Origin: a bacterium
GTDB taxonomy: Bacteria > Desulfobacterota > S145-22
Direction of reading: 5' to 3'
Assembly (NCBI GenBank): GCA_027073795.1
Contig: JALTEW010000453.1
Location: forward strand, 1 to 42,667
Length of the DNA: 42,667 nt
A program made the position numbers and the translations under genes. Shown here piece after piece: positions 28,437 through 39,298 of the stretch. Within the stretch, counting starts at the first letter, position 1; every line of letters starts with the position of its first letter. The notes beneath the pieces are model-generated. The model had not been told where the DNA came from. It saw only the letters and a program-made list of their open reading frames with translations, and did not search any database.

Positions 28437-29309
28437 TTAACCCACCATCACCTTTTCCCACACTTGCCTCATCAGAGGTGCAACCTCTGGAACATCGGCT
28501 TCAACAATTGTCTTGCCAGCTACCATTGCCTCTATCACACCCCGATGAAACGGAATTTCCCCCACGACTTCAATTCCCTTCTGGAGACAATACGCCTCAA
28601 TCTGTCGGGTATTGGCAAGATGGACATCATATTTGTTAATGCAAACCTGCGCGGGGATATTGAAATGCGCCGCCAAACTCAGCACGCGCTCCATGTCATG
28701 AATCCCTGACAAGGTAGGTTCCGTAATTATCAAGACCTTATTCACTCCAGCAAGGGCTGCCGTTACGGGGCAACCGATACCCGGAGGGCCATCAACAATA
28801 ACCCACGACCGTCCCTGCTTCTTGGCAATATCAACGGCCTCTTTTCGCACCACTGTAACCAATTTTCCGGAATTCTCCTCGGCGATACCGAGTTTCGCAT
28901 GAACCATAGGACCGAAACGCGTGTCTGAAACAAACCAATCTCCGGAATGCGCATCCTCCATTTTAATCACATGTTCAGGACAGGCATGGGCACAAAGTGC
29001 ACAGTGGTCGCAGGCAAATAGGTCCACGACACCATCGTGAATGGCATCAAAACGGCACACGTCGGTACAAACTCCACACCTCGTGCAATTTTCAAGATCG
29101 ACAACTGGATTTCTTCCCCCATAGAATGGAGACGACTTTTGAACTGTGGGGGTCAAAATCAGATGCAGATCCGCGGCGTCCACATCGCAATCGGCCATCA
29201 CCTTATTCTCCGTCAGCTGGGCGAAAGCAGCGGTGAATGTCGTCTTACCTGTTCCCCCTTTCCCACTTATGATAGTAAGCTGCTTGGGATCAGTTTTAGT
29301 TTCTGTCAT
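28437..29309 (-). CDS. MinD/ParA-class P-loop ATPase with an inserted 2x[4Fe-4S] ferredoxin module (orp-type, copy B)
   Basis: Start set at ATG 29309 (MTETKTD...). It has the deviant Walker A SGKGGTGKT and an insert CTRCGVCTDVC ... CDHCALCAHACP. It overlaps the upstream paralogue by 14 nt. Confidence 0.85.
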   Translation of the reverse strand: MTETKTDPKQLTIISGKGGTGKTTFTAAFAQLTENKVMADCDVDAADLHLILTPTVQKSSPFYGGRNPVVDLENCTRCGVCTDVCRFDAIHDGVVDLFACDHCALCAHACPEHVIKMEDAHSGDWFVSDTRFGPMVHAKLGIAEENSGKLVTVVRKEAVDIAKKQGRSWVIVDGPPGIGCPVTAALAGVNKVLIITEPTLSGIHDMERVLSLAAHFNIPAQVCINKYDVHLANTRQIEAYCLQKGIEVVGEIPFHRGVIEAMVAGKTIVEADVPEVAPLMRQVWEKVMVG

Positions 29310-30162
29310 GATGCACCTCCTTTTGAACAACCTCAAACATCTCCAGAAACCTGTCCCTGTACTGCGGAAGGATATCAATAAGGGCCTTACCACCCGCATA
29401 TCCCTGGGCTATTTCCTGCATCAAGGGAATCTCCATAAGAATAGACAAGTTCTCCTCTTGGCAATAAGCATGCACGCTATCGTCACCCGCATCCGCGCGA
29501 TTGATAATGACACCCATGGGAACCCTTAACTCCCTACAAACCCCAACTGCCAGTTTCAGGTCATTGAGGCCGAAGGGCGTGGGTTCCGTCACAAGAATCG
29601 TATAATCGCTTCCCTCCACAGTTTCAATAACAGGGCATGAGGTTCCGGGAGGGGCATCCCGAAGTGTAATAGGAACACCAGTCAATGCCTCCTTCTTCAA
29701 CCTCCTGATAATCGGTGTGGCCATGGGTTCACCGATGTTAAGTAACCCCTGTGAAAACACGATTCCATTCCTCGCGGGGCCATTCCTGATAATCCCAATG
29801 GGTTTTTCAATCTCCGTAATCGCGTCGACTGGACAGATATAGCTACAGGCCCCACATCCATGACAAAGTTCATCGAATACCAAAACCTTGCCACCAATGA
29901 CCACAATGGCCTTAAATTCACACACACGATTACACTCGCCACACGCCGTGCAAACCGATTCGTTGACCCTGGGGACCACCAATCCTGTCGGTATTTCGTT
30001 CTCCCACTGAGGGCTTAGAAAGATATGACCGTTGGGCGCCTCTACATCACAATCAAGGTACTGAACACCCTCGGGAAGAGACAGAGCCAAGGATGTTGCC
30101 ACCAACGTTTTCCCTGTTCCACCCTTCCCACTTGCCACCGTTATGGTTAATGATGTTTTCAT
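29296..30162 (-). CDS. MinD/ParA-class P-loop ATPase with an inserted 2x[4Fe-4S] ferredoxin module (orp-type, copy A)
   Basis: 288 aa with the deviant Walker A SGKGGTGKT and an insert CTACGECNRVC ... CHGCGACSYICP. Confidence 0.85.
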   Translation of the reverse strand: MKTSLTITVASGKGGTGKTLVATSLALSLPEGVQYLDCDVEAPNGHIFLSPQWENEIPTGLVVPRVNESVCTACGECNRVCEFKAIVVIGGKVLVFDELCHGCGACSYICPVDAITEIEKPIGIIRNGPARNGIVFSQGLLNIGEPMATPIIRRLKKEALTGVPITLRDAPPGTSCPVIETVEGSDYTILVTEPTPFGLNDLKLAVGVCRELRVPMGVIINRADAGDDSVHAYCQEENLSILMEIPLMQEIAQGYAGGKALIDILPQYRDRFLEMFEVVQKEVHHDRN

Positions 30163-30218
30163 TTACTTCCCCTTTCTATCCCCTTACCTTCTTTTTATTG
30201 TATGCGAAATAAAGACGG

Positions 30219-30256
30219 ATAAAAAATAGGTGGGGAAGGTAGTAACTCCCCCACCC
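30219..30256 (-). terminator. Rho-independent terminator candidate between the DUF5320-like gene and the MinD-ferredoxin genes
   Basis: The minus-strand RNA reads GGUGGGGGAG-UUACUAC-CUUCCCCACC, a 10-bp GC-rich stem with one G-U pair. It is followed directly by UAUUUUUUAU and starts 15 nt after the DUF5320-like stop codon. Confidence 0.6.
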
Positions 30257-30270
30257 AAGCGTTTAAGGGG

Positions 30271-30549
30271 TTACCAGCGCCAGATACGCCCCCGGCCACC
30301 GCCAAACGCGCGACCCCGGCCACCGCCATAGGGAATTCCCCCACGGCCAACGCCATAAACGGGGCGACCATAACCGGCTATTCCATAATAGGGATAGGGA
30401 ACCGCCCACCCCGTACCATAACCATAAGGCGGATACCAACGTCCGGCACCTACATACGAAACATATCCTGCCGGACGGGCACAATATCCCCGCCCACCGC
30501 CGGTCAGGGGGCCTTCACCCCTCGGCCCTGTACCATCAAATCCTGGCAT
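30271..30549 (-). CDS. DUF5320-like Gly/Tyr/Arg-rich low-complexity protein
   Basis: Start set at ATG 30549, 8 nt after AAGGAGG. The N-terminus MPGFDGTGPRGEGPLTGGGRGYC matches my recollection of the DUF5320 N-terminal motif. The remainder is GYG/RGG-type low complexity and ends in GRIWRW. Confidence 0.75.
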   Translation of the reverse strand: MPGFDGTGPRGEGPLTGGGRGYCARPAGYVSYVGAGRWYPPYGYGTGWAVPYPYYGIAGYGRPVYGVGRGGIPYGGGRGRAFGGGRGRIWRW

Positions 30550-30573
30550 GGCACACACCTCCTTTCACCCGTT

Positions 30574-31164
30574 TTAAGATTGGGTTAGTTTTTTCAACAT
30601 TTCCTTCATTTCATTCAGATCCTTCTTCAAATCATTGATCTCTGAACGGAGCTGATCTGTCTCGGGATTGGGCCCCGGCTGCACCTGATAACCCATGCCA
30701 CGCCCCATACCCATGCCACGACCCATACCCATACCACGCCCCATACCCATACCTCTGCCCATGCCGTATGCTGGCGCTGCGCCAGTATCTCCTCCAGCAC
30801 CCACGCCATAGTGCGCATCTACAGAAGGCGCCGAAACGCCTTGAAGGGTCTCCTGCTTGAATGCCTCAATCGCCTGGCGTACCGTACCCGGGGGTGCCAG
30901 GTAAACCCCTACCCCAGCCGCCTGGAGGGTTTGTATAGCATTGGGTCCTACATTTCCCGTAATCACGGCTTCGGCACCCTTGTTCGCAACAAACTGTCCC
31001 GCCTGAATCCCGGCGCCACCACCCGCCATCATGCTCTCATTACCAAGGCTTTCCAGAACCTGCATCGAATCCGTATCCACAAGTAGAAAATACTGACATC
31101 TCCCAAACCTCGGGTCCAGTTCATCATCCAGGCCGGGGCCTGTCGATGTAACAATTACCTTCAT
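30574..31164 (-). CDS. NifX/NifB-C-terminal-like (dinitrogenase FeMo-cofactor-binding fold) protein with a GMGMGR-repeat and coiled-coil tail
   Basis: Residues 1-105 show the NifX-like pattern (DPRFGRCQYFLLVD ... GAEAVITGNVGPNA ... GVGVY). Residues 134-158 are the (GMGMGR)n repeat. Residues 165-196 form a charged heptad-like tail (LRSEINDLKKDLNEMKEMLKKL). Confidence 0.85.
   Translation of the reverse strand: MKVIVTSTGPGLDDELDPRFGRCQYFLLVDTDSMQVLESLGNESMMAGGGAGIQAGQFVANKGAEAVITGNVGPNAIQTLQAAGVGVYLAPPGTVRQAIEAFKQETLQGVSAPSVDAHYGVGAGGDTGAAPAYGMGRGMGMGRGMGMGRGMGMGRGMGYQVQPGPNPETDQLRSEINDLKKDLNEMKEMLKKLTQS
30691..30765 (-). repeat. imperfect 18-nt tandem repeat (about 4 units) encoding GMGMGR
   Basis: Plus-strand units are CCCCATACCCATGCCACG / ACCCATACCCATACCACG / CCCCATACCCATACCTCT and so on. 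They lie in frame inside the NifX-like gene. Confidence 0.8.
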
Positions 31165-31198
31165 TTTATGTCACTCCTTCCGGTCTTTAAAACCGATT

Positions 31199-31555
31199 TT
31201 ATAGTCTTTTTATGACCACTTTTTGGAGCAAGCCGCTCCTATATTTTTGATAGGCCCTTTCCACTGTCATGTCACCCTGAATCCGGTAAACATCAACCCC
31301 CATCTTTTCAAAAACCCCGAAGGCGTTGGGACCAACCGCACCTGAAATGACCCCTGTGGCACCCTCGTTTATCACCTGCTGGGCTGCTTCAGTTCCGGCC
31401 CCCATTGCGGTATCCGCCGCATCGTTTCTTATGGCATACACCTGAGGTGCGCCTAAATCATCTTCGTCAACAAAGATAAAGTATGGTGCGCGCCCAAACC
31501 TCGGGTCAGCCTTTGACGCAAGACTGTCACCCATAGAAGAAATAGCTATTTTCAT
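31199..31555 (-). CDS. NifX/NifB-C-terminal-like small protein (ORP-like paralogue 2)
   Basis: Start set at ATG 31555 after GGAGG (MKIAISSMGD...). Motifs are DPRFGRAPYFIFVD and GATGVISGAVGPNAF. The ORF-track start at 31717 lies inside the upstream gene. Confidence 0.85.
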   Translation of the reverse strand: MKIAISSMGDSLASKADPRFGRAPYFIFVDEDDLGAPQVYAIRNDAADTAMGAGTEAAQQVINEGATGVISGAVGPNAFGVFEKMGVDVYRIQGDMTVERAYQKYRSGLLQKVVIKRL

Positions 31556-31601
31556 TTTGCCTCCATCCTCAATGCATACAGCAGCCCTGATGATGCCAAC
31601 G

Positions 31602-31964
31602 CTAATGTTCGTGCTCCGCGCAACCGCTCGCGCCCTTTGCCTCCCCTCTGAGATAGGCGTCCAAGACATTCCGGACGATCCCCATATAGCCCGTGACCAC
31701 TTCAATTCCGTATCCATTGAAAATATTTATCGCCATGGGTCCCATCCCACCGGCAATCATCACATCCACGTTTTGCGAATGGACAAACGCGGGAACCTTT
31801 CCTGGCTCATGACTATTGTAAAATGGGTTTTCAACCACGGACACATCTTGAATCTTCCCATCTTCCACATCTACCAGTGTGTAGTAGGGACATCGGCCGA
31901 AATGACCACTCATCTGACCCTCCAGCCCCAAGTTATCTTGTGACGCAAGCGCAATTTTTGGCAT
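31602..31964 (-). CDS. NifX/NifB-C-terminal-like small protein (ORP-like paralogue 1) with a Cys/His tail
   Basis: 120 aa with GHFGRCPYYTLVDV, VDVMIAGGMGPMA and the C-terminal GCAEHEH. Confidence 0.85.
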   Translation of the reverse strand: MPKIALASQDNLGLEGQMSGHFGRCPYYTLVDVEDGKIQDVSVVENPFYNSHEPGKVPAFVHSQNVDVMIAGGMGPMAINIFNGYGIEVVTGYMGIVRNVLDAYLRGEAKGASGCAEHEH

Positions 31965-31980
31965 ACCTTAACTTTCCTCC

Positions 31981-32526
31981 TTACGATTTATAGTGATTTT
32001 CATAAACAAAATCTGACAGTTCTTTCCTCTTTGGCCCTTCCGGAACCCTATCAGGAATTCCAATGGGTAACAATGCAACCACGGCGACACCTTCAGGAAC
32101 ACCGAGAATTTCCTCCGCTTTTGAGGCGTCAAACAACCCAACAATCACAGACCCCAGCCCCTGGGCGTGTGCAGCGAGACACGCATTCAATGTTGCCGCC
32201 CCCACGTCAAACATGAACCAGTCGCCTTTATCAGTTGAAACCTCCCCCTTATAAAAACCAGACCGCCCCTTTATTCCACACATCACAAGCACAACGGGCG
32301 CTTGTGTCATGGCCTTAAATGCCGGATTACCCGGCGGCAAGGTCCCAGCCAACTGTTCCTTGACCTTATTATCCTTAACCACTACGACCTCCCAGCACTG
32401 GGTATTGGCCCAAGAGGGAGTCCACTGAATCGCCTCGAGAATCGCTTGCAGTTGTTCGTCCGATATAGGATCAGGCTTCATCTCTCTTGTTGCGCGCCGG
32501 GCCCTGATCGCCTCTAAAACATCCAT
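31981..32526 (-). CDS. nitroreductase-fold (FMN-dependent) family protein
   Basis: The N-terminus [15 protein letters not shown] and [16 protein letters not shown] are typical of the nitroreductase family. The start is probably the second ATG (32526), 6 nt downstream of the one abutting the RBS GGAGGAGGG. Confidence 0.85.
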
Positions 32527-32552
32527 TATCATCCCTCCTCCCCATTCACTGT

Positions 32553-33404
32553 TCAGGCCTGAGAAGCCTCATTAGCCTTGGACTCCTCTACAAACACGCG
32601 CACTTTTTTTACCACCTCTTTAAACGCCAATGCCGCCTTTGAATCAGGATGGGAAATGACAAAAGGGGCACCGCGATCGCTATCCTGAACAATCTCCGGA
32701 TCAATGGGGATACTCCCTAAAAAGGGAACCCCCAACTCCAAGGCCGCTTTCTTCCCGCCTCCTACCTTAAATAAGTCAATTTCCTTTCCACAATAGGGAC
32801 AGATCAACCCGCTCATGTTCTCCACAATCCCGACCACCGGTACCTGAAGCTGGCGGCTAAAGGTAACTGACTTCCTGGAGTCAAGAAGTGCCACATCCTG
32901 CGGGGTCGTTACAATGATACTGCCATCCATCTGGTTGATAACCTGAGCAACACTCAGCGGCTCATCCCCTGTCCCTGGAGGCAGATCGATAATCAGGTAA
33001 TCAAGTTTCCCCCAATTGACATCCTTGACAAACTGCTGGATAAGAGAATGTTTCAGAGGACCCCTCCAGACCACGGGGGTATCCCTGTCCTGCAATAAGA
33101 ATGCCATGGAAACAACCTTGAAATTGGGAAAGAACTCAACGGGATTAATCCCTCCCGCCTCGCTTCCCCCCAAACGGCTGGATTCAATGCCCAACATCTT
33201 TGGGACATTCGGACCGTGGACATCTACATCCATCAATCCTACACTTAAACCTTCCTTTGCAAGGGTCATTGACAAATTAACCGCAACCGTTGTCTTGCCA
33301 ACCCCCCCCTTTCCACTCATAACAGCTATACGGTGGTCAATTGTACTCAATCTCTTCGTAATAAGTTCCTGCTCCTTCTTTCTATCTTCGACTTTTTTTG
33401 CCAT
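32553..33404 (-). CDS. mrp: Mrp/NBP35/ApbC-family Fe-S cluster carrier ATPase
   Basis: 283 aa with the deviant Walker [20 protein letters not shown] and the CPYCG (CxxC) cluster-bridging motif. Confidence 0.92.
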
Positions 33405-33424
33405 CTTTCACTCCCTATTCAACG

Positions 33425-33601
33425 TTAAAAACAGCCTAACTGACAGGCTACAATTTTAAGGTTTAATTTATTAATAAGCTTCCCCACCCTTCTAACAGAC
33501 ACATTAAGCTCTCCTGCAACCTTATGGGCCGCCCGACAGCTTATTTTCCCGTTTTTTGAAGCCTTCTTTATCCGCTCAATAACCTCCTCTTCGGAACTCA
33601 T
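33425..33601 (-). CDS. unlisted 58-aa ORF: small HTH-like protein with 3 Cys (C-terminal CQLGCF)
   Basis: It is below the 60-aa cut-off of the ORF track. The translation is MSSEEEVIERIKKASKNGKISCRAAHKVAGELNVSVRRVGKLINKLNLKIVACQLGCF. Its ATG overlaps the TGA of the upstream MBL gene (ATGA), and its stop lies 20 nt before the mrp start, so it exactly fills an otherwise unexplained 190-nt gap in a tight operon. Confidence 0.6.
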   Translation of the reverse strand: MSSEEEVIERIKKASKNGKISCRAAHKVAGELNVSVRRVGKLINKLNLKIVACQLGCF

Positions 33602-34464
33602 TGAAGTACTACCCCCCCCTTCTCATAAATTGTAATAACGACCCCTGCCATCGCTCGGAAAAACCTCTTTCCGAAGGAACGTTTCATCTCATCCGCCGCT
33701 TCAAGTCCTGTACAGTGGGATACACCAATGGTTTGTATGTTCATCCCTTTAAGGGCTTCGATGGTTTTCTTCGTCTGCCTCGGGTCCACCCTTGATAAGT
33801 GCGTTCCTCCAACCACCGTTAAGATAGGGACGTTCCCCGCCAAAGTCAAGATATGTTCCAAAATATTTACCACCCCCCTGTGAGAGCAACCTAAGATTAC
33901 CACCAACCCCTGGGGTGTCTTAATGTAGAGGGATGCATCATCCATGAACGGATCACGGACAGATAACCCCTTCTCATCCTTAACAACCAGAAGTGGGTCA
34001 CCCTTTTCGAAATCGTTTGCCTGTGGCACTTCACTGACATAGAAGATATCAGGCGCCACTTCATAATGGGGAGTCACAAATTTGAAATTGATCCCCCTGC
34101 TCTCCAGATAGGCCTGTGTATAGGGACACCCAATGTATTTCAGGGAACCATCTTTTTGCTTTTTATAACGCGCCACAAAAACGTCCCTATGAGCAATCAC
34201 CTGCACATTCACGGAAGAACGGGCAAGACTGAGCAACCCACCCGTATGATCATAATGGCCGTGGCTCAACACAACAGTATCAATAGACGAGAGGTCCTTT
34301 CCCATTACATCGGCATTATGCCAGAAAACATCAGACTGACCGGTATCGAAAAGAACCTTTGTGTTTCCCCTCTCAATAAGGATAGAAAACCCATGTTCCG
34401 CGCGAATTCCTTCTTTCATCGCAGCGCTATTGTCACAAAGAACGCTGAGAGTTATTTTATCCAT
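33598..34464 (-). CDS. MBL-fold metallo-hydrolase
   Basis: Start set at ATG 34464 (MDKITLSVLCDN...). It carries the metal-binding motif LSHGHYDHTGG and a later GCSHRG. Confidence 0.85.
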   Translation of the reverse strand: MDKITLSVLCDNSAAMKEGIRAEHGFSILIERGNTKVLFDTGQSDVFWHNADVMGKDLSSIDTVVLSHGHYDHTGGLLSLARSSVNVQVIAHRDVFVARYKKQKDGSLKYIGCPYTQAYLESRGINFKFVTPHYEVAPDIFYVSEVPQANDFEKGDPLLVVKDEKGLSVRDPFMDDASLYIKTPQGLVVILGCSHRGVVNILEHILTLAGNVPILTVVGGTHLSRVDPRQTKKTIEALKGMNIQTIGVSHCTGLEAADEMKRSFGKRFFRAMAGVVITIYEKGGVVLQ

Positions 34465-34777
34465 TCGTTTCACCTTGTTTGAGGCGGCTCTTTCCGTTTC
34501 GTCTGTGATACCGCCCACACTGCTTCCTTCGGCAGTTCCTTACCTTCCAGCATGGCGCAATTTCCATCAATCTCTTAACACCCGTCAGATTGATGCCATC
34601 TTCATGAATAAGCTTGCGGATACACCGAATATACTCCAAATCATCATCAGAATAATACCTGCGCCCGTTCCTTCTCTCCGGTTTAATAAGGTTTTCCTGC
34701 TCATAAATCCTCAGCGTCCGGGGATGGACCTGAAGCAAATCCGCCGCAACCCCTATTGGGTAAACCCCCTTCCCCAT
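34457..34777 (-). CDS. MerR-family transcriptional regulator with a short Cys-rich C-terminal tail
   Basis: 106 aa. The N-terminal HTH is YPIGVAADLLQVHPRTLRIYEQENLIKPERRNGRRYYSDDDL, and the tail is PCWKVRNCRRKQCGRYH (C-x6-C-x4-C). It overlaps the MBL gene by 8 nt. Confidence 0.85.
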   Translation of the reverse strand: MGKGVYPIGVAADLLQVHPRTLRIYEQENLIKPERRNGRRYYSDDDLEYIRCIRKLIHEDGINLTGVKRLMEIAPCWKVRNCRRKQCGRYHRRNGKSRLKQGETNG

Positions 34778-34808: not shown

Positions 34809-34837
34809 AATATAATGCTGTAAATATATATTGTCAA
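34809..34837 (-). promoter_or_regulatory. sigma70-type promoter candidate for the merR-led operon (TTGACA-17 nt-TATATT)
   Basis: The minus strand reads cTTGACA-atatatatttacagcat-TATATT, about 30 nt upstream of the merR ATG. The spacer contains a TATTTACAG half-site. Confidence 0.5.
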
Positions 34838-34842
34838 GTTTT

Positions 34843-34862
34843 CTGTAAATAATTATTTACAG
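34843..34862. promoter_or_regulatory. perfect 20-bp AT-rich palindrome CTGTAAATAATTATTTACAG (operator candidate)
   Basis: Perfect dyad centred about 50 nt upstream of the predicted start site. A third copy of the half-site CTGTAAATA lies at 34818-34826, inside the promoter spacer. Confidence 0.5.
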
Positions 34863-34880: not shown

Positions 34881-35252
34881 TTACACATTATCAATGGAAC
34901 ATGTAAAAATTGCGGGAGAAGAGGTATGGTTTTTAAGCGCATGGGGTTCAAAGGTATAGGTATAGATGGTCTCTCCAGGCCCCACTTCCACCGTCTCTTC
35001 CTCCGTTGAAAAAAGGAGCGCCCCTTCCAGCATGAAAACAACTTCCTCATAGGCATGTTCGTGCATGGGTATTTCTCCACCCGGCTCCAGAACAAAATAC
35101 CGGAAAGAAAAATTGTGGTTATACGCTTCCCCTCCCGTTTCAGAATCCACAATCCACCGGATTTTACAACCGGTCACGGGGACCTTTTCCCCATGGCGTA
35201 TCACTTCCTTGACCTCGATCTCGGGAACATCACTCACCTTTCTGACAATCAT
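34881..35252 (-). CDS. cupin-domain protein
   Basis: Start set at ATG 35252, 5 nt after GGAGG. It has the single-domain cupin motifs GGEIPMHEHAYEEVVFMLEG and GETIYTYTFEPHALKN. Confidence 0.8.
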   Translation of the reverse strand: MIVRKVSDVPEIEVKEVIRHGEKVPVTGCKIRWIVDSETGGEAYNHNFSFRYFVLEPGGEIPMHEHAYEEVVFMLEGALLFSTEEETVEVGPGETIYTYTFEPHALKNHTSSPAIFTCSIDNV

Positions 35253-35329
35253 TTGAACCTCCAAAAACTTTTCATTTTAACTTCTACCAGGGCTTTTCAA
35301 ACCACGATATTTAGCATATCCTTTAAGAA

Positions 35330-36541
35330 ATGAAAACCGCCCACAAAGTTGCTTCTTACTCCATTGCCGTCAACGTCATCCTCTTTGCCTTAAAATTGGT
35401 TATAGCACTCATTTCGGGAAGCATCTCACTTCTTGCTGATGCCATCCATTCCTCCACCGACATCATCTCCTCCATTGCCCTTTTAATAGGGATAAAAATC
35501 TCCGGACGCAAATCCAGAAACTTTCCCTTTGGCCTGTACAAGGTGGAAAATCTTGTTTCTCTTGGGATCGCCTTTATCATCTTTCTGACAGGGTATGAAA
35601 TCATCCGTGAGGTTTTCTTTGAACACAGATTTCTCAAATTAACCCGACCTTTCCTCGCTATGACCACGGCAGGGGCTGTTATGTGCATAACCTGGTTCTT
35701 CTCCGCTTACGAAATAAAAATGGGAAAGAAAGAAAACTCTCCCGCTATTACTGCCGACGGCAAACACGTCCGGACAGACGCCATCGTTTCCTTCATCGTC
35801 CTTTTGGGACTTGCCGGCAAGCTTGTTCATATTCCGGCTGAAAAAGCCGCAACTATCATTGTCATCGGGTTTATCATGAAAGCCGGTTGGGGCATTCTTC
35901 TGGAATCCATTCGAGTGCTTTTAGACGCATCTATAAACCCCAAGACCTTGAATCAAATCAGAGAGATTATTACTTCCCATCCCGCTATTACGGACATCCG
36001 GGAAATTATCGGGAGAAACTCGGGGAGTTTTACATTCATCGAAGGAAATCTCGTGGTCAAAGCGAGGGACTTCACACATGCCCATCAGATTATCGAGGAA
36101 ATAACCGAAAAGGTCCGTCGGCAGATCCCGCATATTGACCGTATTGTTCTGCATTATGAACCGGCCAAGAAATCGACATTTCTTATCGCCGCCATGTTAT
36201 CAGACGGTGCACAATGGCGTGTTTCAGAGCATTTCGGAGATGCCCCCTACATCGGTTGGATAGAGATTCACCTCAAGGAAAACCGCATCATCCACACGGA
36301 GGTTGCCGCCAATCCCTACGGCAATATCGAAAAGGGCAAGGGCATTAAGGTCGCTGAACACCTCATCAATCGTGGTGTCGATCTTGTTTTAACCTGCGAG
36401 TCTTTTAGCGGGAAAGGACCTGAATATGTTTTCAGCAGCCGGGATGTCAAGGTGTTTAGAATATCAGAAGAATTCATTTATCCCGATCTTATCGCCAGAA
36501 TCTACAAAGAAGAAACCGGGCAGGAGTTATCGAAATCCTGA
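35330..36541 (+). CDS. cation diffusion facilitator (CDF) transporter fused to a C-terminal NifX/NifB-like domain
   Basis: Residues 1-205 form six TM segments, with HSSTD in TM2 and HVRTD in TM5 (an H-D/H-D site). Residues 206-290 form a CDF cytoplasmic domain. Residues 291-403 read FLIAAMLSDGAQWRVSEHFGDAPYIGWIEI ... GVDLVLTCESFSGKGPEYV ... VKVF, the same pattern as the three NifX-like genes opposite. Confidence 0.85.
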   Translation: MKTAHKVASYSIAVNVILFALKLVIALISGSISLLADAIHSSTDIISSIALLIGIKISGRKSRNFPFGLYKVENLVSLGIAFIIFLTGYEIIREVFFEHRFLKLTRPFLAMTTAGAVMCITWFFSAYEIKMGKKENSPAITADGKHVRTDAIVSFIVLLGLAGKLVHIPAEKAATIIVIGFIMKAGWGILLESIRVLLDASINPKTLNQIREIITSHPAITDIREIIGRNSGSFTFIEGNLVVKARDFTHAHQIIEEITEKVRRQIPHIDRIVLHYEPAKKSTFLIAAMLSDGAQWRVSEHFGDAPYIGWIEIHLKENRIIHTEVAANPYGNIEKGKGIKVAEHLINRGVDLVLTCESFSGKGPEYVFSSRDVKVFRISEEFIYPDLIARIYKEETGQELSKS

Positions 36542-36603: not shown

Positions 36604-36679
36604 TGGTGCCGAGTCGCGGAATCGAACCACGGACACGGGGATTTTCAGTCCCCTGCTCTACCGACTGAGCTAACTCGGC
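36604..36679 (-). tRNA. tRNA-Phe (anticodon GAA)
   Basis: The reverse complement is GCCGAGTTAGCTCAGTCGGTAGAGCAGGGGACTGAAAATCCCCGTGTCCGTGGTTCGATTCCGCGACTCGGCACCA, a 76-nt canonical cloverleaf with an encoded CCA end. Confidence 0.93.
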
Positions 36680-36831: not shown

Positions 36832-37398
36832 ATGAAACAAATGGGTCATAAGGCAAGACTTGTCACCATCACCGGGATCCTCATTCTCACATTCATGGTC
36901 AGTGTCACCCAAGGTTGGGCAAAACCCCTGCGGAACCGACAACGCATGATGGAAAAAATCGAAACCATCAAGATGTGGAAACTAATGGATGCCCTGGACC
37001 TCGACAGTCAAACCGCTTTGAAGGTCTTCCCCATCATCCGGAAGATCGATAAAAAGCGGCTGGACCTGCGCGCAAAACAGCGGGATCTCCTTGATAAAAT
37101 TGAAAATCTTGTCAAAGAAGGTAAGGGAAACGCCAACAGCCTTGACACCCTTGCCAATCAACTCTTCGATCTAAATGAACAGATCAGCCAACTTCCCCGG
37201 GAAGAATACAGAAGGCTCAAGCCCGTTCTGGCGGAAACACAACTGGCCAGGTACCTCATTTTCCAGAAACGTTTCCGGAAGGAGCTCATCCATCGCTGGA
37301 TGCAGAACAGACGACGCAAACCGGTGCAGGAGCGCTCTGGACCCGGTGTGAGAAGCAGGAACGGACTCATCGTGCAACCTCCACAGCCACAGCCCTGA
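36832..37398 (+). CDS. periplasmic helical protein, Spy/CpxP-like (tentative)
   Basis: 188 aa, with the RBS AGGAGG, a signal peptide and a highly charged helical body with LxxxQ-type repeats. The family assignment is tentative. Confidence 0.5.
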   Translation: MKQMGHKARLVTITGILILTFMVSVTQGWAKPLRNRQRMMEKIETIKMWKLMDALDLDSQTALKVFPIIRKIDKKRLDLRAKQRDLLDKIENLVKEGKGNANSLDTLANQLFDLNEQISQLPREEYRRLKPVLAETQLARYLIFQKRFRKELIHRWMQNRRRKPVQERSGPGVRSRNGLIVQPPQPQP

Positions 37399-37470
37399 TC
37401 CCCTTTTTCGTCTAATCCCCCCACCGCTCCTTCCGCTCGCGCAACTGACAAGCGGGGGACTTTTCCCCAC

Positions 37471-37499
37471 TTGACGATAAATCCTGTATACGCTATATC
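37471..37499 (+). promoter_or_regulatory. sigma70-type promoter candidate (TTGACG-17 nt-TATATC) upstream of the radical SAM gene
   Basis: Hexamers at 37471-37476 and 37494-37499, about 30 nt upstream of the ATG at 37530. Confidence 0.4.
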
Positions 37500-37529
37500 T
37501 CAAACAATAACACAAAGATTCAAATCTTC

Positions 37530-38462
37530 ATGGTAAATAAAAACCGGCAGGTCCAGAACACAATCCCTCCCTCACCTCACCCTTACAAGTTAAGTAACCT
37601 CCGCACCCTCTACCGTCTCACACGGGCATGCGCCATCTGTCCAAGAGAATGCGGCGCGCTGCGGTTATCTGGAAAAACCGGTTTTTGCGGGGTCGGGAGA
37701 CTCCCGGAGGTTTCAAGCCATAATCTCCACTTCGGAGAGGAACCCCCAATCTCAGGCACGCGGGGCTCCGGTACCATCTTTTTTACCCACTGTAACCTCC
37801 GGTGCGTCTTTTGCCAAAACTACCCTATCAGCCATTTAGGACACGGTGAAACCGTCACAGTGAAAAAACTGGCCAACATGATGCTGTCGCTGCAATCACG
37901 GGGGGCTCACAACATCAACCTCGTGACACCCACACCCCATACCGCCCAAATCGCCCACGCCATTGTTATCGCCCGAGGGGAAGGACTCAATATTCCAATC
38001 GTTTACAATACCTCCGGTTATGAACGGGTCGAAACTCTTCGGCTCCTCGAGGGGCTGGTGGATATCTATATGCCGGATATCAAATTTGCCACAAGGGAAA
38101 CAGGACGCGTTTACGCCCAGGCCCCGGACTATTTCGAGGTTGCCCGGAAAGCGGTCAGGGAAATGCACCGCCAGGTGGGAACCCTGACAATAGACCGGCA
38201 CGGAATCGCCTTCCGGGGATTGCTCATACGGCACCTCATCCTTCCCGGCCACCTGAACGAAACGAAAACCATCCTCCACTTCATCGCGGAGGAGTTTCCA
38301 CCCAACACATACATTAGCCTGATGAGCCAGTACTTCCCTGCCTACCGATCACACGAATTTCCCAACCTGTCCAGATACCTCTCAAAACCGGAGTACGAAA
38401 AGGCAAAGGGATATCTGAAAATGTTTCACTTGGAAACGGGGTGGCTCCAGGAAATGAAGTGA
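37530..38462 (+). CDS. radical SAM protein (pyruvate formate-lyase-activase-like, PflX type)
   Basis: 310 aa with the CNLRCVFCQN (CxxxCxxC) motif and an upstream Cys cluster CAICPRECG...FCG. Confidence 0.85.
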   Translation: MVNKNRQVQNTIPPSPHPYKLSNLRTLYRLTRACAICPRECGALRLSGKTGFCGVGRLPEVSSHNLHFGEEPPISGTRGSGTIFFTHCNLRCVFCQNYPISHLGHGETVTVKKLANMMLSLQSRGAHNINLVTPTPHTAQIAHAIVIARGEGLNIPIVYNTSGYERVETLRLLEGLVDIYMPDIKFATRETGRVYAQAPDYFEVARKAVREMHRQVGTLTIDRHGIAFRGLLIRHLILPGHLNETKTILHFIAEEFPPNTYISLMSQYFPAYRSHEFPNLSRYLSKPEYEKAKGYLKMFHLETGWLQEMK

Positions 38463-39229: not shown

Positions 39230-39270
39230 AAAATGAATACCTCGCAATTCGGCCCTCCTCTTTCCCCGCA

Positions 39271-39298
39271 TTGACAAGTTAGATTGTTGGTATATTAT
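39271..39298 (+). promoter_or_regulatory. sigma70-type promoter candidate (TTGACA-16 nt-TATTAT) upstream of pmbA
   Basis: The hexamers lie about 30 nt upstream of the GTG start at 39331, which is itself preceded by AAGGAGG. Confidence 0.4.

What the first reader, a model, noticed from the sequence alone, without database searches (positions are those of the whole stretch)
28437..34777. Eleven-gene orp-like (orange protein complex type) metallocluster module with different regulation and extra components
Seen in the sequence: eleven co-directional minus-strand genes run from 34777 to 28437 with overlaps or very short gaps. The MerR and MBL genes overlap by 8 nt. The MBL gene and the 58-aa ORF share an ATGA. 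There is a 20-nt gap before mrp, and the two MinD-ferredoxin genes overlap by 14 nt.

The gene content, in order, is:
- a MerR regulator with a Cys tail
- an MBL-fold hydrolase (SHGHYDHTGG)
- a 58-aa Cys protein
- an Mrp/NBP35 ATPase ([13 protein letters not shown])
- a nitroreductase-fold protein
- three paralogous NifX/NifB-C-terminal-like proteins (HFGRxPY-type motif)
- a DUF5320-like Gly/Tyr/Arg-rich protein
- two deviant-Walker-A ATPases, each carrying an inserted pair of CxxCxxCxxxC(P) motifs

Established knowledge: NifX-like small proteins combined with MinD-ferredoxin ATPases and Mrp are the signature of the anaerobe-specific orange protein (ORP) complex locus of Desulfovibrio vulgaris Hildenborough. 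That locus comprises orp1/orp2, DVU2103-DVU2109. Its ORP subunit binds a Mo/Cu-sulfide cluster, and its cellular role is still unresolved, though a link to cell division has been proposed. It is organised as two divergent sigma54/EBP-controlled operons.

Inference: this locus is an expanded, unidirectional variant. It has no enhancer-binding protein or sigma54 promoter, even though rpoN is in the same window. It is led instead by a MerR-type regulator. It also adds MBL, nitroreductase, DUF5320 and small-Cys components, with a cupin and a CDF-NifX fusion as neighbours. Together this looks like a self-contained metal or metallocluster acquisition, assembly and delivery system whose substrate and function are not described.
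Basis: partly seen in the sequence, partly recalled or inferred. Interest (0 to 1): 0.8.

Follow-up and report, generated by a model that had tools for sequence, protein, structure and literature searches.

The report
Orange-protein-type metal-cluster operon, new variant
This is a real, conserved eleven-gene operon: a lineage-specific version of the widespread but still unexplained "orange protein" gene cluster of anaerobes, most likely handling iron-sulfur material, here under a small cysteine-bearing MerR-type repressor instead of the sigma-54 activator used in Desulfovibrio.

Summary
Eleven co-directional minus-strand genes (34777-28437) have the stated overlaps and every predicted domain. 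One exception is a 108-nt gap holding a conserved terminator hairpin before the two ATPase genes.

The orp-like reading is supported. The locus has two paralogous MinD-like ATPases with ferredoxin inserts. It has an Mrp whose best NCBIfam match is MrpORP, and three NifX-fold proteins. One of these is about 48% identical to the D. gigas orange protein.

The full order, plus the divergent CDF-NifX gene, recurs in three sister lineages. The cupin gene is missing in one of them. The MinD-Fd pair with NifX genes recurs in 75-77 of 80 loci from many bacterial and archaeal phyla. Mrp (40), DUF5320 (35) and MBL (17) are recurrent accessories there. MerR, DUF7645 and the nitroreductase are absent from those 80 loci.

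Recurrent neighbours elsewhere are Fe-S biogenesis genes (IscU, DUF59, Fur), not Mo/Cu genes. One NifX protein and the DUF5320 protein carry IssA-like cationic glycine-rich sequence.

The regulator is a minimal GlnR/TnrA-like MerR with four invariant cysteines and two conserved operators.

Verdict: new variant of a known, functionally unresolved kind. Interest is moderate.

The parts
35330..36541 (+). [quoted passage not shown]
   Evidence: Pfam finds Cation_efflux, ZT_dimer and Nitro_FeMo-Co. The best NCBIfam equivalog-level similarities are to MamB/MamM (iron) and MntE, all below cut-off. It is kept next to the module in all three sister lineages at 69-78% identity. It is also found inside or beside ORP-like clusters in L058, L147, L164 and L167.
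34881..35264 (-). Cupin_2 protein upstream of the operon promoter
   Evidence: Pfam Cupin_2, E 5e-16. It is conserved at 86-87% identity in L086 and L088 and absent in the L083 group.
34809..34861 (-). Sigma-70-type promoter (TTGACA-17-TATATT, 34837-34809) with two operator-like inverted repeats: a perfect palindrome TGTAAATAATTATTTACA (34844-34861) and a second site (34819-34836) overlapping the -35 box and spacer
   Evidence: It is the best promoter-like site in the region, 11 of 12 matches. The palindrome pattern occurs only here in the window (2 matches, 0.08 expected). The -35 box, spacer length, -10 box and repeats are conserved in four lineages.
34457..34777 (-). Minimal MerR-family regulator (106 aa) with four invariant Cys (C52, C76, C82, C87) and no long dimerisation helix
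   Evidence: Pfam MerR_1 at 66 bits. NCBIfam HspR at 78.5 bits is below the 105 cut-off. The AF2 model is a winged HTH with a disordered tail. The best fold matches are GlnR/TnrA. The four Cys are invariant in sister lineages and in homologs of 45-54% identity.
33598..34464 (-). MBL-fold protein (HxHxDH plus conserved Cys-His pairs), COG1237 type
   Evidence: Pfam Lactamase_B. The best PDB hits are 2P4Z and TM1679 (3H3E), both of unknown function. Invariant residues are H68, H70, D72, H73, C193, H195, H222, H250 and C251. It co-occurs with the cluster in 17 of 80 loci. In MBL-anchored loci of at least 6 kb, 12 of 41 carry Mrp.
33425..33601 (-). 58-aa DUF7645 protein with three invariant Cys (C22, C53, C57; C-terminal CQLGCF)
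   Evidence: Pfam DUF7645 at 28 bits, cut-off 27. There are 642 representative clusters at E<=1e-3, mostly tandem two-domain proteins of 125-145 aa. The alignment shows the invariant Cys. It is 64-85% identical in sister lineages.
32553..33404 (-). [quoted passage not shown]
   Evidence: Pfam ParA/NUBPL at 329 bits. NCBIfam MrpORP at 370.9 bits covers profile positions 1-257 only (cut-off 450). ApbC scores 240 bits.
31981..32532 (-). Nitroreductase-fold flavoprotein
   Evidence: Pfam Nitroreductase at 99.7 bits. The best PDB hits, 4G8S and 4DN2, are uncharacterised. Close homologs (249-256 bits) follow MBL-Mrp in L094 and L098.
31602..31964 (-). NifX-like 1, of the MrpORP C-terminal (Di-Nase) type
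   Evidence: PF02579. It matches MrpORP profile positions 273-364 at 72 bits. The best PDB hits are TM1816 (1T3V/1O13) and PH0822.
31199..31555 (-). NifX-like 2, of the MTH1175 type
   Evidence: PF02579. The best PDB hit is MTH1175 (1EO1) at 68.7 bits.
30574..31164 (-). NifX-like 3: an orange-protein-type acidic globular domain, then a (GMGR)n cationic Gly/Met-rich segment, then a C-terminal helical (coiled-coil-like) segment
   Evidence: PF02579 plus DUF5320 profile positions 21-99. The best PDB hit is D. gigas ORP 2WFB at 73.6 bits, 49 of about 101 positions identical. The same architecture is found in roughly 25 of 80 loci from many phyla.
30271..30558 (-). DUF5320-like 95-aa protein (pI 10, 32% Gly, 12% Arg, 19% aromatic, 11% Pro). 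The likely true start is the ATG at 30549
   Evidence: Pfam DUF5320 profile positions 1-51 at 31.5 bits, cut-off 27. It is 74-82% identical from residue 4 onward in sister lineages.
30227..30257 (-). Intrinsic-terminator-like hairpin (12 bp) with a T-run, between DUF5320 and MinD-Fd A
   Evidence: It is the strongest terminator-like site in the region. Folding gives -20.8 kcal/mol, z-score -3.25. It is conserved in four lineages, with both-side changes in 7 of 12 pairs.
29296..30162 (-). MinD-like ATPase A with an inserted 2x[4Fe-4S] ferredoxin domain (Orp3/Orp4 type)
   Evidence: Pfam CbiA/ParA plus two Fer4 stretches. The AF2 core resembles MinD/FleN/HypB-ATPase/Cfd1. No structure of this class has been solved. 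More than 8000 homologs score E<1e-20.
28437..29309 (-). MinD-like ATPase B with an inserted 2x[4Fe-4S] ferredoxin domain, paralog of A
   Evidence: Pfam CbiA plus two Fer4 stretches. It is 30% identical to A. It is paired with A in 77 of 80 loci.

Best explanation
**What it is.** The locus is a lineage-specific version of the ORP-type (orange protein complex type) gene cluster. That cluster is conserved across anaerobic bacteria and archaea.

**Shown here.**
- The invariant core is a pair of paralogous MinD-like ATPases, each with a double [4Fe-4S] ferredoxin insert, plus one or more NifX/ORP-fold small proteins.
- Here the core is joined to an Mrp/NBP35 Fe-S carrier, an MBL-fold protein, a 3-Cys DUF7645 protein and a nitroreductase-fold flavoprotein.
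- It is also joined to two carriers of cationic glycine-rich sequence: the tail of NifX-like 3 and the separate DUF5320 protein.
- Alongside lie a cupin and a divergent Fe/Mn-type CDF transporter fused to a NifX domain.
- The whole arrangement is under purifying selection as a unit.

**Inferred mechanism.** The module buffers, assembles and hands on inorganic iron-sulfur material.
- Acidic NifX-fold domains bind labile Fe-S species.
- The Arg/Gly/Met and Arg/Gly/Tyr-rich sequences hold anionic Fe-S polymers or clusters electrostatically, as proposed for IssA.
- The C-terminal helical segment of NifX-like 3 would drive oligomerisation.
- Mrp carries [4Fe-4S] clusters to the two ferredoxin-ATPases, as shown in vitro for MrpORP and Orp3/Orp4.
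- The ATPase pair uses ATP to load or unload the NifX proteins, or to deliver to targets.
- The flavoprotein and the MBL protein supply reducing or sulfur-processing steps.
- The CDF-NifX transporter disposes of excess metal.

**Inferred regulation.**
- Transcription starts at one sigma-70 promoter.
- A minimal GlnR/TnrA-like MerR protein represses it by binding two inverted repeats, one of which covers the -35 box.
- Its four invariant cysteines are the likely Fe-S, redox or metal sensor. This replaces the [4Fe-4S]-PAS sigma-54 activator OrpR of Desulfovibrio.
- A conserved internal terminator lowers expression of the two ATPase genes relative to the nine upstream genes.
For: **Family assignments.**
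- The NifX-like 3 domain is about 48% identical to D. gigas ORP.
- The Mrp matches MrpORP best, and NifX-like 1 matches the MrpORP C-terminal domain.
- MinD-Fd A and B are 30% identical. Orp3 and Orp4 are likewise paralogs, at 41% similarity (PMC6345978).

**Conservation.**
- The order is conserved at 60-88% identity in three lineages with different flanks.
- Across 80 loci from many phyla, co-directional and within 6 kb of the anchor gene:

| Gene family | Loci of 80 |
|---|---|
| MinD-Fd pair | 77 |
| NifX | 75 |
| Mrp | 40 |
| DUF5320 | 35 |
| IscU/NifU_N | 22 |
| MBL | 17 |
| Fur | 11 |
| DUF59 | 8 |

- No recurrent Mo, W or Cu genes were found.
- NifX domains with a GMGR-repeat tail and a helical end recur across phyla.

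**IssA-like features.** The DUF5320 composition matches the published IssA tail description (PMC5524996).

**Literature.**
- MrpORP transfers Fe-S clusters to Orp3/Orp4 in vitro (PMC6345978).
- OrpR senses redox through an Fe-S cluster (PMC8359166).

**Regulation.**
- Promoter and operators are conserved.
- The regulator's fold resembles GlnR/TnrA.
- Its Cys are invariant out to 45% identity.
- Homologous Cys-bearing MerR genes sit divergently beside NifX-DUF5320-MinD-Fd clusters in two distant lineages. One of those has a palindrome carrying TTGACA on both strands.
- The terminator shows covariation.
- The CDF part is closest to MamB/MamM/MntE.
Against: - No experiment on this locus exists, and the physiological role of the ORP complex itself is unresolved.
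- The only cofactor seen in a native orange protein is a Mo-Cu-sulfide cluster.
- Met-rich cationic repeats could equally bind Cu(I) or thiometallates.
- NifX-like 3 fails the published operational criteria for the IssA and IssX clades: whole-protein pI 5.0, and 2 of the last 40 residues are Gly.
- I could not compare directly with the D. vulgaris Orp3/4/5 sequences.
- MBL-Mrp-nitroreductase occurs alone elsewhere. The terminator also splits the locus, so two loosely coupled units remain possible.
- MerR, DUF7645 and the nitroreductase are absent from all 80 distant loci.
- The roles given to the MBL protein, the flavoprotein, the cupin and DUF7645 are guesses.
Confidence: 0.6

Rival explanations
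1. The module handles molybdenum or tungsten with copper as thiometallate. The ORP-like protein and its paralogs would sequester or assemble Mo/W-Cu-sulfide clusters like the [S2MoS2CuS2MoS2] cluster of the D. gigas orange protein. The purpose would be detoxification or cofactor supply. The Met/Arg-rich tails would bind Cu(I) or the anionic cluster, and the CDF transporter would export metal.
For: - The NifX-like 3 domain is about 48% identical to the D. gigas ORP. That protein is the only family member with a native cofactor described, which is Mo-Cu (PMC6345978 introduction).
- The tail carries 8 Met in 54 residues next to Arg, a composition compatible with Cu(I) or anion binding.
- DUF364/DUF4213 "putative heavy-metal chelation" genes occur in 8 of 80 loci.
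Against: - The window has no Mo/W transport or molybdopterin genes and no Moco riboswitch.
- Recurrent neighbours across 160 surveyed loci are Fe-S genes (IscU, DUF59, Mrp, Fur) and not Mo/Cu genes.
- The other ORP-complex proteins studied bind Fe-S clusters (PMC6345978).
- The CDF part is closest to Fe/Mn-type transporters.
Confidence: 0.15
2. There are two or three functionally separate units that are only adjacent. One is an MBL-DUF7645-Mrp-nitroreductase Fe-S maturation or repair unit. Another is a NifX/DUF5320 unit. The third is a MinD-Fd ATPase unit. Under this reading the "eleven-gene system" overstates the integration.
For: - The MBL-Mrp-nitroreductase triplet occurs without MinD-Fd genes in L094 and L098.
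- Most close relatives of the MBL protein are not next to ORP-like genes: about 29 of 41 loci of at least 6 kb lack Mrp.
- A conserved terminator separates the ATPase pair.
- In D. vulgaris the genes form two operons (PMC8359166).
Against: - The whole order is kept in four lineages while the flanks change.
- Eight junctions are overlaps or gaps of 46 nt or less.
- Only one good promoter was found, and no conserved promoter lies after the terminator.
- Mrp, MBL and CDF-NifX each recur inside MinD-Fd/NifX clusters in unrelated phyla.
- In D. vulgaris the two operons are co-regulated and their products co-purify (PMC6345978, PMC8359166).
Confidence: 0.15
3. It is a cell-division or spatial-positioning system. 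The MinD-like ATPases would position the septum or a cellular structure, as first proposed for the ORP complex, and the metal-binding proteins would be accessory.
For: - The ATPase core folds like MinD/FleN/FlhG.
- Cell division was the original proposal for ORP, and MrpORP localises to a cell pole (PMC6345978, PMC4672049).
Against: - The fold search matches the metallochaperone ATPases HypB and Cfd1 nearly as well, with slightly weaker E-values and similar TM-scores.
- No MinC/MinE or division genes are linked in the window or in the surveyed loci.
- The recurrent partners are Fe-S genes.
- The proposal was never confirmed experimentally (PMC4672049 calls it a hypothesis still to be confirmed).
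Confidence: 0.07

Closest known systems
ORP (orange protein) complex and orp operons of Desulfovibrio vulgaris Hildenborough (DVU2103-DVU2109; Fievet 2011; PMC6345978; PMC8359166)
   Same: - Both have two paralogous MinD-like ATPases with two [4Fe-4S] ferredoxin motifs each.
- Both have an Mrp/NBP35 with CXXC.
- Both have several IPR003731/NifX-fold small proteins, one of orange-protein type.
- Both belong to anaerobes, and in both the regulator is (or probably is) a cysteine or Fe-S sensor.
   Different: - This locus runs in one direction from a sigma-70 promoter. The D. vulgaris genes form two divergent sigma-54 operons that need OrpR and IHF.
- The Mrp here lacks the fused Di-Nase domain and the N-terminal Cys motif. 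A stand-alone NifX-like 1 of that type lies two genes downstream.
- The ORP-type protein here carries a (GMGR)n and helical tail.
- Extra genes here are MBL, DUF7645, nitroreductase and DUF5320, with a cupin and CDF-NifX alongside.
- Direct sequence comparison with Orp3, Orp4 and Orp5 was not possible.
IssA iron-sulfur storage protein of Pyrococcus furiosus (PF2025; PMC5524996)
   Same: - Both have an IPR003731 globular domain followed by or accompanied by cationic, glycine-rich, aromatic low-complexity sequence.
- The DUF5320 protein (pI 10, 32% Gly, 19% aromatic, 12% Arg, 11% Pro) closely mirrors the published tail description.
- The globular domain is acidic, as noted for the IssA clade.
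   Different: - The features are split over two adjacent genes.
- NifX-like 3 as a whole has pI 5.0 and ends in a helical, non-glycine segment, so it fails the published IssA and IssX criteria.
- There is no evidence of thioferrate here.
- IssA has not been described with MinD-Fd or Mrp partners.
MrpORP (NCBIfam NF041136; DVU2109 and Dde3202)
   Same: The P-loop domain aligns over profile positions 1-257 at 370.9 bits. It has the deviant Walker A motif and CPYC. It sits in an ORP-type cluster.
   Different: It scores below the 450-bit equivalog cut-off because the Di-Nase domain is a separate gene. It contains only two cysteines, so the N-terminal Cys motif is absent.
GlnR/TnrA and HspR, the short MerR-family repressors
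   Same: - Both have a winged HTH without the long MerR dimerisation helix, followed by a short C-terminal regulatory tail.
- Both bind inverted-repeat operators overlapping a normally spaced (17-nt) promoter.
- Operator 1 has TGTAA/TTACA arms like the TnrA box (from my own knowledge of that consensus).
   Different: - The tail carries three invariant Cys, with a fourth in the DNA-binding domain.
- The arm spacing is N8 rather than N7.
- It scores below the HspR and TnrA NCBIfam cut-offs (78.5 against 105; 30.9 against 140).
- The target is a metallocluster operon.
NifX/NafY/NifB C-terminal domain of nitrogenase cofactor assembly
   Same: It shares the PF02579 fold, which binds complex Fe-S cofactor precursors non-covalently.
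   Different: The window has no nif genes. The best matches are ORP, MTH1175 and TM1816-type stand-alone proteins, not NifX or NafY.

Membership tests
ORP-type gene cluster (orange protein complex) | Two paralogous MinD/ParA-type ATPases, each with two inserted [4Fe-4S] ferredoxin motifs (Orp3/Orp4 type) | tested here: met
   CbiA/ParA plus two Fer4 stretches are found in both proteins. They are 30% identical to each other. The pair is conserved in 77 of 80 related loci.
ORP-type gene cluster (orange protein complex) | A small IPR003731/PF02579 protein orthologous to the orange protein (Orp8 / D. gigas ORP) | tested here: met
   The best PDB hit of NifX-like 3 is 2WFB (D. gigas ORP) at 73.6 bits, E 1e-19, with 49 of about 101 positions identical.
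ORP-type gene cluster (orange protein complex) | Linked Mrp/NBP35 carrier with deviant Walker A and CXXC motifs | tested here: met
   Pfam ParA/NUBPL at 329 bits. GKGGVGKT and CPYC are present.
ORP-type gene cluster (orange protein complex) | Sigma-54 promoters with a cognate EBP (OrpR), in two divergent operons | tested here: not met
   The window has no GAFTGA-type EBP. Neither intergenic region has a -24/-12 match. The genes run in one direction behind a sigma-70-like promoter. This feature describes the Desulfovibrio locus rather than the cluster family: only 18 of 80 loci have an EBP nearby.
ORP-type gene cluster (orange protein complex) | The proteins form a physical complex, and the ORP subunit binds a Mo-Cu-sulfide cluster | not testable with these tools
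   This needs pull-down experiments and metal analysis.
ORP-type gene cluster (orange protein complex) | Direct orthology of the ATPases and the other NifX-like proteins to DVU2103, DVU2104 and DVU2105 | not tested
   The D. vulgaris sequences could not be obtained.
MrpORP (NCBIfam NF041136 equivalog) | Whole-protein score at or above 450 bits, which requires the P-loop domain fused to a C-terminal Di-Nase domain | tested here: not met
   The score is 370.9 bits over profile positions 1-257 only. The Di-Nase part (positions 273-364) is matched by the separate NifX-like 1 at 72.3 bits.
IssA / IssX clades (Vaccaro 2017) | An IPR003731 domain protein with pI >=9 (IssX: >=8), fewer than 5 Cys (IssX: fewer than 10) and >=20% Gly in the last 40 residues (IssX: >=10%) | tested here: not met
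   The criteria come from the paper's supplement. NifX-like 3 has pI 5.02, 1 Cys and 2 Gly in its last 40 residues. Its Gly-rich cationic segment (residues 107-160, pI 9.7) is internal. The neighbouring DUF5320 protein has the required composition (pI 10.0, 2 Cys) but no IPR003731 domain.
IssA / IssX clades (Vaccaro 2017) | [quoted passage not shown] | not testable with these tools
   This needs TEM, EPR or XAS on purified or in-cell protein.
MerR family (canonical metal or redox sensors such as MerR, CueR, SoxR) | N-terminal winged HTH, a long antiparallel coiled-coil dimerisation helix, a C-terminal effector site, and an operator within a 19-20-bp promoter spacer | tested here: not met
   The HTH is present (MerR_1, 66 bits). 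The AF2 model has no long helix after residue 79. The promoter spacer is 17 nt. The best fold matches are the short GlnR/TnrA proteins. It belongs to the MerR superfamily but is not of the canonical sensor type.
HspR (NCBIfam NF047375 equivalog) | Score at or above 105 bits | tested here: not met
   The score is 78.5 bits.
DUF5320 (PF17253) | Pfam gathering score of 27 bits | tested here: met
   The 95-aa protein scores 31.5 bits over profile positions 1-51. The NifX-like 3 tail scores 32.6 bits over profile positions 21-99. The family's two halves therefore sit on two adjacent genes.
Metallo-beta-lactamase fold, COG1237-type | HxHxDH motif with downstream His and Asp ligands, and similarity to 2P4Z and TM1679 | tested here: met
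   SHGHYDHTGG is present, with invariant H195, H222 and H250 and the additional Cys C193 and C251. 2P4Z scores 141 bits and 3H3E scores 135 bits. The catalytic activity is unknown.

The most novel reading that the evidence does not exclude
The locus encodes a bacterial iron-sulfide storage and mobilisation machine driven by ATP.
- It would act as a "split IssA". An orange-protein-type NifX domain with a (GMGR)n/helical tail, together with a free DUF5320 protein, would wrap anionic Fe-S polymer.
- Loading and unloading would be done by the so far structure-less MinD-ferredoxin ATPase pair and by Mrp.
- Expression would be set by a new class of minimal MerR repressor that senses Fe-S status through four cysteines.
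- If so, this would also assign a function to the whole anaerobe-wide ORP cluster family and to DUF5320.
Probability: 0.22. Interest if true: 0.8.

Novelty: new variant of a known kind. Interest (0 to 1): 0.5.

Why it matters
The ORP cluster is among the most widespread anaerobe-specific gene clusters. The MinD-Fd ATPase alone has more than 8000 homologs at E<1e-20. After 15 years it still has no accepted function, and Fe-S biogenesis in anaerobes is poorly understood.

This variant is informative for four reasons.
- It puts ORP-type, IssA-like and Mrp components, together with a CDF transporter, into one compact, conserved unit with a simple sigma-70 promoter. The regulator is small and can be tested.
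- The survey done here shows which partners recur across phyla: DUF5320, an unannotated Gly/Arg-Cys4 mini-protein, IscU, MBL and CDF-NifX.
- The recurrent partners point to iron-sulfur rather than Mo-Cu chemistry.
- It gives concrete handles for experiments: two operators, four cysteines and an internal terminator.

The locus is not a new kind of system, and nothing here establishes its function.

Tried and rejected
- **Chance juxtaposition.** Rejected. The order is conserved in four lineages with different flanks.
- **Sigma-54 control.** Rejected. No -24/-12 site lies in the intergenic regions, matches are below chance (29 found, 36 expected), and the window has no EBP.
- **Riboswitch or other known RNA element** (for example Moco). 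None found; Rfam reports only two tRNAs.
- **Nitrogenase context.** Rejected. There are no nif genes, and the rest of the window is housekeeping.
- **A 132-nt difference between the window and the ENA copy of the contig (L001).** It looked like a DUF5320-ATPase fusion but is a 100-N scaffold gap.
- **First metagenome scan with the single MBL protein.** It found nothing. The alignment-based repeat worked.
- **The listing of cluster members.** It gave no names, so no taxonomy. Placement rests on Der GTPase homologs: about 13 close relatives, then at most 50% identity to Thermodesulfobacteriota or "Deltaproteobacteria" MAGs. One MerR homolog is labelled "Deltaproteobacteria bacterium".
- **The founding ORP paper (Fievet 2011).** Not held. 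Statements about it come from later papers by the same group and from my own knowledge.
- **First operator pattern.** It used the wrong spacing and found nothing. This was corrected.
- **The window's radical-SAM gene (37530-38462).** It is unrelated to the radical-SAM family that recurs next to these clusters.
- **Fold search of the MinD-Fd model.** It could not separate a MinD-like role from a metallochaperone-like role.
- **Distant Cys-MerR homologs.** Three of the five examined (P0419, P0422, P0403) are not next to ORP-like genes. The regulator-cluster link is therefore recurrent but not universal.

Full report
**1. The observation**

The ORF list shows eleven genes on the minus strand between 34777 and 28437.

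| Gene | Coordinates |
|---|---|
| MerR | 34777-34457 |
| MBL | 34464-33598 |
| 58-aa ORF | 33601-33425 |
| Mrp | 33404-32553 |
| nitroreductase | 32532-31981 |
| NifX-like 1 | 31964-31602 |
| NifX-like 2 | 31555-31199 |
| NifX-like 3 | 31164-30574 |
| Gly/Tyr/Arg-rich ORF | 30558-30271 |
| MinD-Fd A | 30162-29296 |
| MinD-Fd B | 29309-28437 |

- The remaining gaps are 15-46 nt, with one exception. A 108-nt gap lies between the Gly-rich ORF and MinD-Fd A.
- Conservation of the Gly/Tyr/Arg-rich ORF starts at its fourth codon, so its true start is probably the ATG at 30549.
It adds two points. The 58-aa protein is DUF7645. NifX-like 3 carries a DUF5320-type tail.
- The neighbours are a cupin (35264-34881) and a divergent CDF+ZT_dimer+NifX fusion (35330-36541).
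- rpoN is in the window at 11733-13160.
- No enhancer-binding protein is present. No -24/-12 element lies in the relevant intergenic regions.
- The rest of the window is housekeeping, with no nif, Mo, W or Cu genes. Rfam finds only two tRNAs.

**2. Source and relatives**

- The window matches a 72.8-kb metagenome scaffold, ENA REYS20-1.
- Its Der GTPase has about 13 close relatives at 70-93% identity. Nothing else exceeds 50%. The nearest named hits are Thermodesulfobacteriota or "Deltaproteobacteria" MAGs.
- The host is therefore an uncultured, deep-branching lineage.
- Three sister lineages have MinD-Fd A at 82-86% identity. In them all eleven genes plus the divergent CDF-NifX gene occur in the same order at 60-88% amino-acid identity.
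- The cupin gene is kept in two of the three and missing in the L083 group.
- In L083 the MerR gene is present but had not been called.
- The gene downstream of the module differs: HisRS in the sister lineages, Der in the window. In two of the groups the upstream genes differ as well.
- The module is therefore inherited as a unit. Chance juxtaposition is excluded.

**3. The wider family**

MinD-Fd A has more than 8000 homologs at E<1e-20. An alignment-based scan of one genome per species returned 80 loci at 47-55% identity.

- Bacterial groups include Chloroflexota, Desulfobacterota, Planctomycetota, Omnitrophota, Acidobacteriota and Bipolaricaulota. Thermotogae, Ignavibacteria, NC10, Clostridia and others are also represented.
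- Archaeal groups include Thermoplasmatota, Methanocellaceae and Bathyarchaeia.

I called ORFs in these loci and searched them with the window proteins. I then searched again with families that recurred among the unassigned ORFs. Counts below are co-directional genes within 6 kb of the anchor, except where noted.

| Family | Loci of 80 |
|---|---|
| second MinD-Fd paralog | 77 |
| NifX-fold gene | 75 |
| small Gly/Arg-rich four-Cys protein, no Pfam family | 43 (50 by clustering) |
| Mrp | 40 |
| DUF5320 | 35 |
| Zn_ribbon_8 | 29 |
| NifU_N/IscU | 22 |
| sigma-54 EBP | 18 |
| MBL | 17 |
| ARMT1 | 17 |
| radical SAM | 17 |
| DUF134 | 13 |
| Fur | 11 |
| CGGC | 11 |
| DUF59 / FeS_assembly_P | 8 |

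- MerR, DUF7645 and nitroreductase were not found in any of the 80 loci.
- The one-directional layout is the rule across phyla. The divergent, sigma-54-controlled Desulfovibrio arrangement is one lineage's solution.
- Regulators differ by lineage: DUF134, Fur, EBP, and MerR here.

**4. The accessory genes**

An MBL-anchored metagenome scan returned 80 loci. Of the 41 loci that are at least 6 kb long:
- 12 also carry Mrp.
- About 10 carry MinD-Fd genes.
- 9 carry NifX.
- 7 carry IscU.

The MBL link is therefore recurrent in both directions but not obligatory. Further points:
- L094 and L098 have an MBL-Mrp-nitroreductase triplet, with the nitroreductase at 249-256 bits. The nitroreductase is thus not unique to this lineage, and a sub-module exists.
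- CDF-NifX fusions lie inside or beside such clusters in L058, L147, L164 and L167.
- The CDF part is most similar to MamB/MamM (iron) and MntE, below the equivalog cut-offs.
- The MBL protein has the HxHxDH motif plus invariant Cys next to His (C193, C251). It resembles only structural-genomics proteins of unknown function, 2P4Z and TM1679.
- The DUF7645 domain has three invariant Cys. It usually occurs as a tandem pair in proteins of 125-145 aa. There are 642 representative clusters.
- The nitroreductase's nearest solved structures are uncharacterised.

**5. Comparison with the ORP system**

According to PMC6345978, the D. vulgaris ORP complex contains five proteins.
- Orp3 and Orp4 are MinD-like, each with two ferredoxin motifs.
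- Orp5 and Orp8 are NifX-fold proteins. Orp8 is homologous to the Mo-Cu orange protein.
- Orp9, also called MrpORP, is an Mrp domain fused to a Di-Nase domain.
- MrpORP transfers its [4Fe-4S] cluster to Orp3 and Orp4 in vitro and localises to a cell pole.

The corresponding findings in the window are as follows.
- The two ATPases match the Orp3/Orp4 description and are 30% identical to each other.
- The NifX-like 3 domain has the D. gigas ORP (2WFB) as its best PDB hit, with 49 of about 101 positions identical.
- NifX-like 2 is closest to MTH1175.
- NifX-like 1 is closest to TM1816 and PH0822. It also matches the C-terminal domain of the MrpORP profile.
- The Mrp scores 370.9 bits against MrpORP and 240 against ApbC. 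This is below the 450-bit cut-off because the Di-Nase domain is missing.
- In effect MrpORP is split here, with the nitroreductase gene between its two parts.
- The Mrp has only the two CPYC cysteines, so the N-terminal Cys motif of MrpORP is absent.
- I could not obtain the D. vulgaris sequences for a direct comparison.

**6.

- IssA of P. furiosus is an IPR003731 domain followed by a cationic, glycine-rich and aromatic tail. [quoted passage not shown]
- The 95-aa DUF5320 protein has pI 10.0, 32% Gly, 12% Arg, 19% aromatic residues and 11% Pro. This is very close to the published tail description.
- NifX-like 3 has three parts. First is an acidic globular domain (pI 4.4). Then comes a cationic GMGRGMGMGR... 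segment (residues 107-160, pI 9.7). Last is a helical, charged C-terminal segment.
- The same three-part architecture recurs in roughly 25 of the 80 loci across phyla.
- By the paper's own operational criteria, NifX-like 3 is not an IssA or IssX member. Its pI is 5.0 and only 2 of its last 40 residues are Gly.
- The resemblance is therefore to how IssA is proposed to work, not to clade membership.
- The Pfam DUF5320 profile is split between the two genes. Positions 1-51 are on the 95-aa protein and positions 21-99 are on the NifX-like 3 tail.
- The Met-rich repeats would also suit Cu(I) or thiometallate binding, so the substrate remains open.

**7. Regulation**

*Promoter and operators*
- The best sigma-70-like promoter in the region is TTGACA-17-TATATT at 34837-34809. 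It lies directly upstream of the MerR gene.
- A perfect palindrome, TGTAAATAATTATTTACA (34844-34861), lies just upstream of the -35 box.
- A second copy with two mismatches (34819-34836) covers the -35 box and spacer.
- The pattern occurs nowhere else in the window: 2 matches against 0.08 expected.
- The promoter hexamers, the spacer length and the repeats are conserved in all four lineages.

*The regulator*
- It is 83-85% identical across the sister lineages, with invariant C52, C76, C82 and C87.
- These four Cys stay invariant in homologs of 45-54% identity from Desulfobacterota and Melainabacteria-type MAGs.
- The AF2 model (mean pLDDT 72) is a winged HTH with no long dimerisation helix and a disordered tail.
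- Its best PDB fold matches are GlnR and TnrA, at 37% identity over 70 residues.
- It scores below the HspR cut-off.
- With a 17-nt spacer and an operator over the -35 box, repression is the likely mode. This step is inference.

*The regulator-cluster link in distant lineages*
- Two of five distant homologs examined (P0413 and P0410) sit divergently next to NifX-DUF5320-MinD-Fd-MinD-Fd-NifX clusters.
- In L172 the intergenic palindrome CTTGACAAT-TTGA-ATTGTCAAG carries TTGACA on both strands.
- The other three are elsewhere.
- A cysteine-based sensor would parallel OrpR, which senses redox through a [4Fe-4S] cluster (PMC8359166).

*The internal terminator*
- Between DUF5320 and MinD-Fd A lies a 12-bp hairpin with a T-run. 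Its folding energy is -20.8 kcal/mol, z-score -3.25.
- It is conserved in four lineages, and 7 of its 12 pairs are kept through changes on both sides.
- No conserved promoter follows it.
- The ATPase genes are therefore probably expressed by read-through at a lower level. This echoes the two-operon split in Desulfovibrio.

**8. Mechanism and rivals**

*Shown*
- Family memberships.
- Conservation of the module.
- Recurrence of the partner genes.
- Conserved promoter, operators and terminator.

*From the literature*
- Mrp-to-MinD-Fd Fe-S transfer.
- Fe-S binding by Di-Nase domains.
- Thioferrate binding by IssA.

*Inferred*
- The module stores or buffers and delivers Fe-S material with the help of ATP.
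- It is repressed by a Cys-sensing minimal MerR protein.

*Why Fe-S is favoured over Mo-Cu.* The genes that recur next to the core in unrelated phyla are IscU, DUF59, Mrp and Fur. They are never Mo, W or Cu genes.

*What could not be resolved.* The ATPase fold matches MinD, FleN, ATPase-type HypB and Cfd1 about equally well. No structure of this ATPase class has been solved. Fold therefore does not decide between positioning and metallochaperone roles.

*Rivals kept*
- Mo/W-Cu thiometallate handling (0.15).
- Two or three adjacent but separable units (0.15).
- Cell-division or positioning role (0.07).

**9. Novelty and verdict**

- The kind of system is known: the ORP cluster was described in 2011. 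Its spread among anaerobes, including Archaeoglobus AF2378-2380 (PMC3949148), is also recognised.
- New here are the gene set and order, the split MrpORP, the ORP-type protein with a (GMGR)n/helical tail and a separate DUF5320 partner, the cysteine-bearing minimal MerR repressor with its operators, the internal terminator, and the linked CDF-NifX gene.
- DUF5320 appears in only two unrelated papers in the searchable literature.
- I rate it a new variant of a known but functionally unresolved kind, with moderate interest of 0.5.
- It would matter more if the IssA-like storage reading proved true.

Noticed in passing
L029:1869-2054 as an example; 43-50 of loci L003-L082, directly upstream of the MinD-Fd A homolog: A small protein of about 60-80 aa recurs here. 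Its N-terminus is Gly/Arg-rich and it has a four-Cys zinc-ribbon-like end (CxCPxCG...CxxC). It has no Pfam family. Apart from NifX, it is the most frequent partner of the MinD-Fd pair. It is absent from the window, where the DUF5320-like gene occupies that position.
   Followed up: partly
L094:4145-7920 and L098:3244-5600: An MBL-Mrp-nitroreductase triplet occurs without MinD-Fd genes. In L094 it is followed by a NUDIX-like gene and by the same radical-SAM family that recurs in 17 of 80 ORP-like loci. This suggests a separable Mrp-centred sub-module.
   Followed up: partly
L172:7900-7960 and L173:7940-7975: Distant Cys-bearing MerR homologs sit divergently from NifX-DUF5320-MinD-Fd operons. 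In L172 the intergenic region holds a perfect palindrome, CTTGACAAT-TTGA-ATTGTCAAG. It carries a TTGACA -35 box on each strand, so one operator could control both divergent promoters.
   Followed up: partly
window 30085-30316; L001:4495-4594; L086 (within the NifX-like 3 tail): The glycine-repeat coding DNA coincides with 100-N scaffold gaps in other assemblies of this region and of a sister lineage. As a result, public gene calls there are truncated (MinD-Fd A called as 227 aa) or missing. The alternative-frame ORFs at 30195-30484 are by-products of the repeat.
   Followed up: yes
P0243, P0246, P0254, P0380 (homologs of window 33425-33601): The DUF7645 domain occurs mostly as a tandem duplication with three invariant Cys per copy. 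It is occasionally fused to larger proteins, for example the 295-aa P0254 and the 212-aa P0380. It looks like a small metal-binding or Fe-S-binding module of unknown function.
   Followed up: partly
window 36604-36679 (-) and 2312-2388 (+): tRNA-Phe (GAA) lies immediately after the CDF-NifX gene. tRNA-Met (CAT) lies near the start of the window. Neither has an evident link to the module.
   Followed up: no
literature: Methanococcus voltae Mvol_0689 and Mvol_0693 (PMC8516115): Two IssA-like NifX-domain proteins are up-regulated on pyrite and are encoded three genes apart. That spacing would fit a NifX-MinD-Fd-MinD-Fd-NifX cluster of the kind surveyed here. The intervening genes could not be checked.
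   Followed up: no
window 36832-40686 compared with L088/L089:1-2916: On the CDF-NifX side, synteny extends further in the P0001 sister group than in the others. It covers a 188-aa protein, a radical-SAM gene, a 242- to 300-aa protein and PmbA/TldD. The window's radical-SAM gene is unrelated to the family linked to ORP-like clusters.
   Followed up: partly
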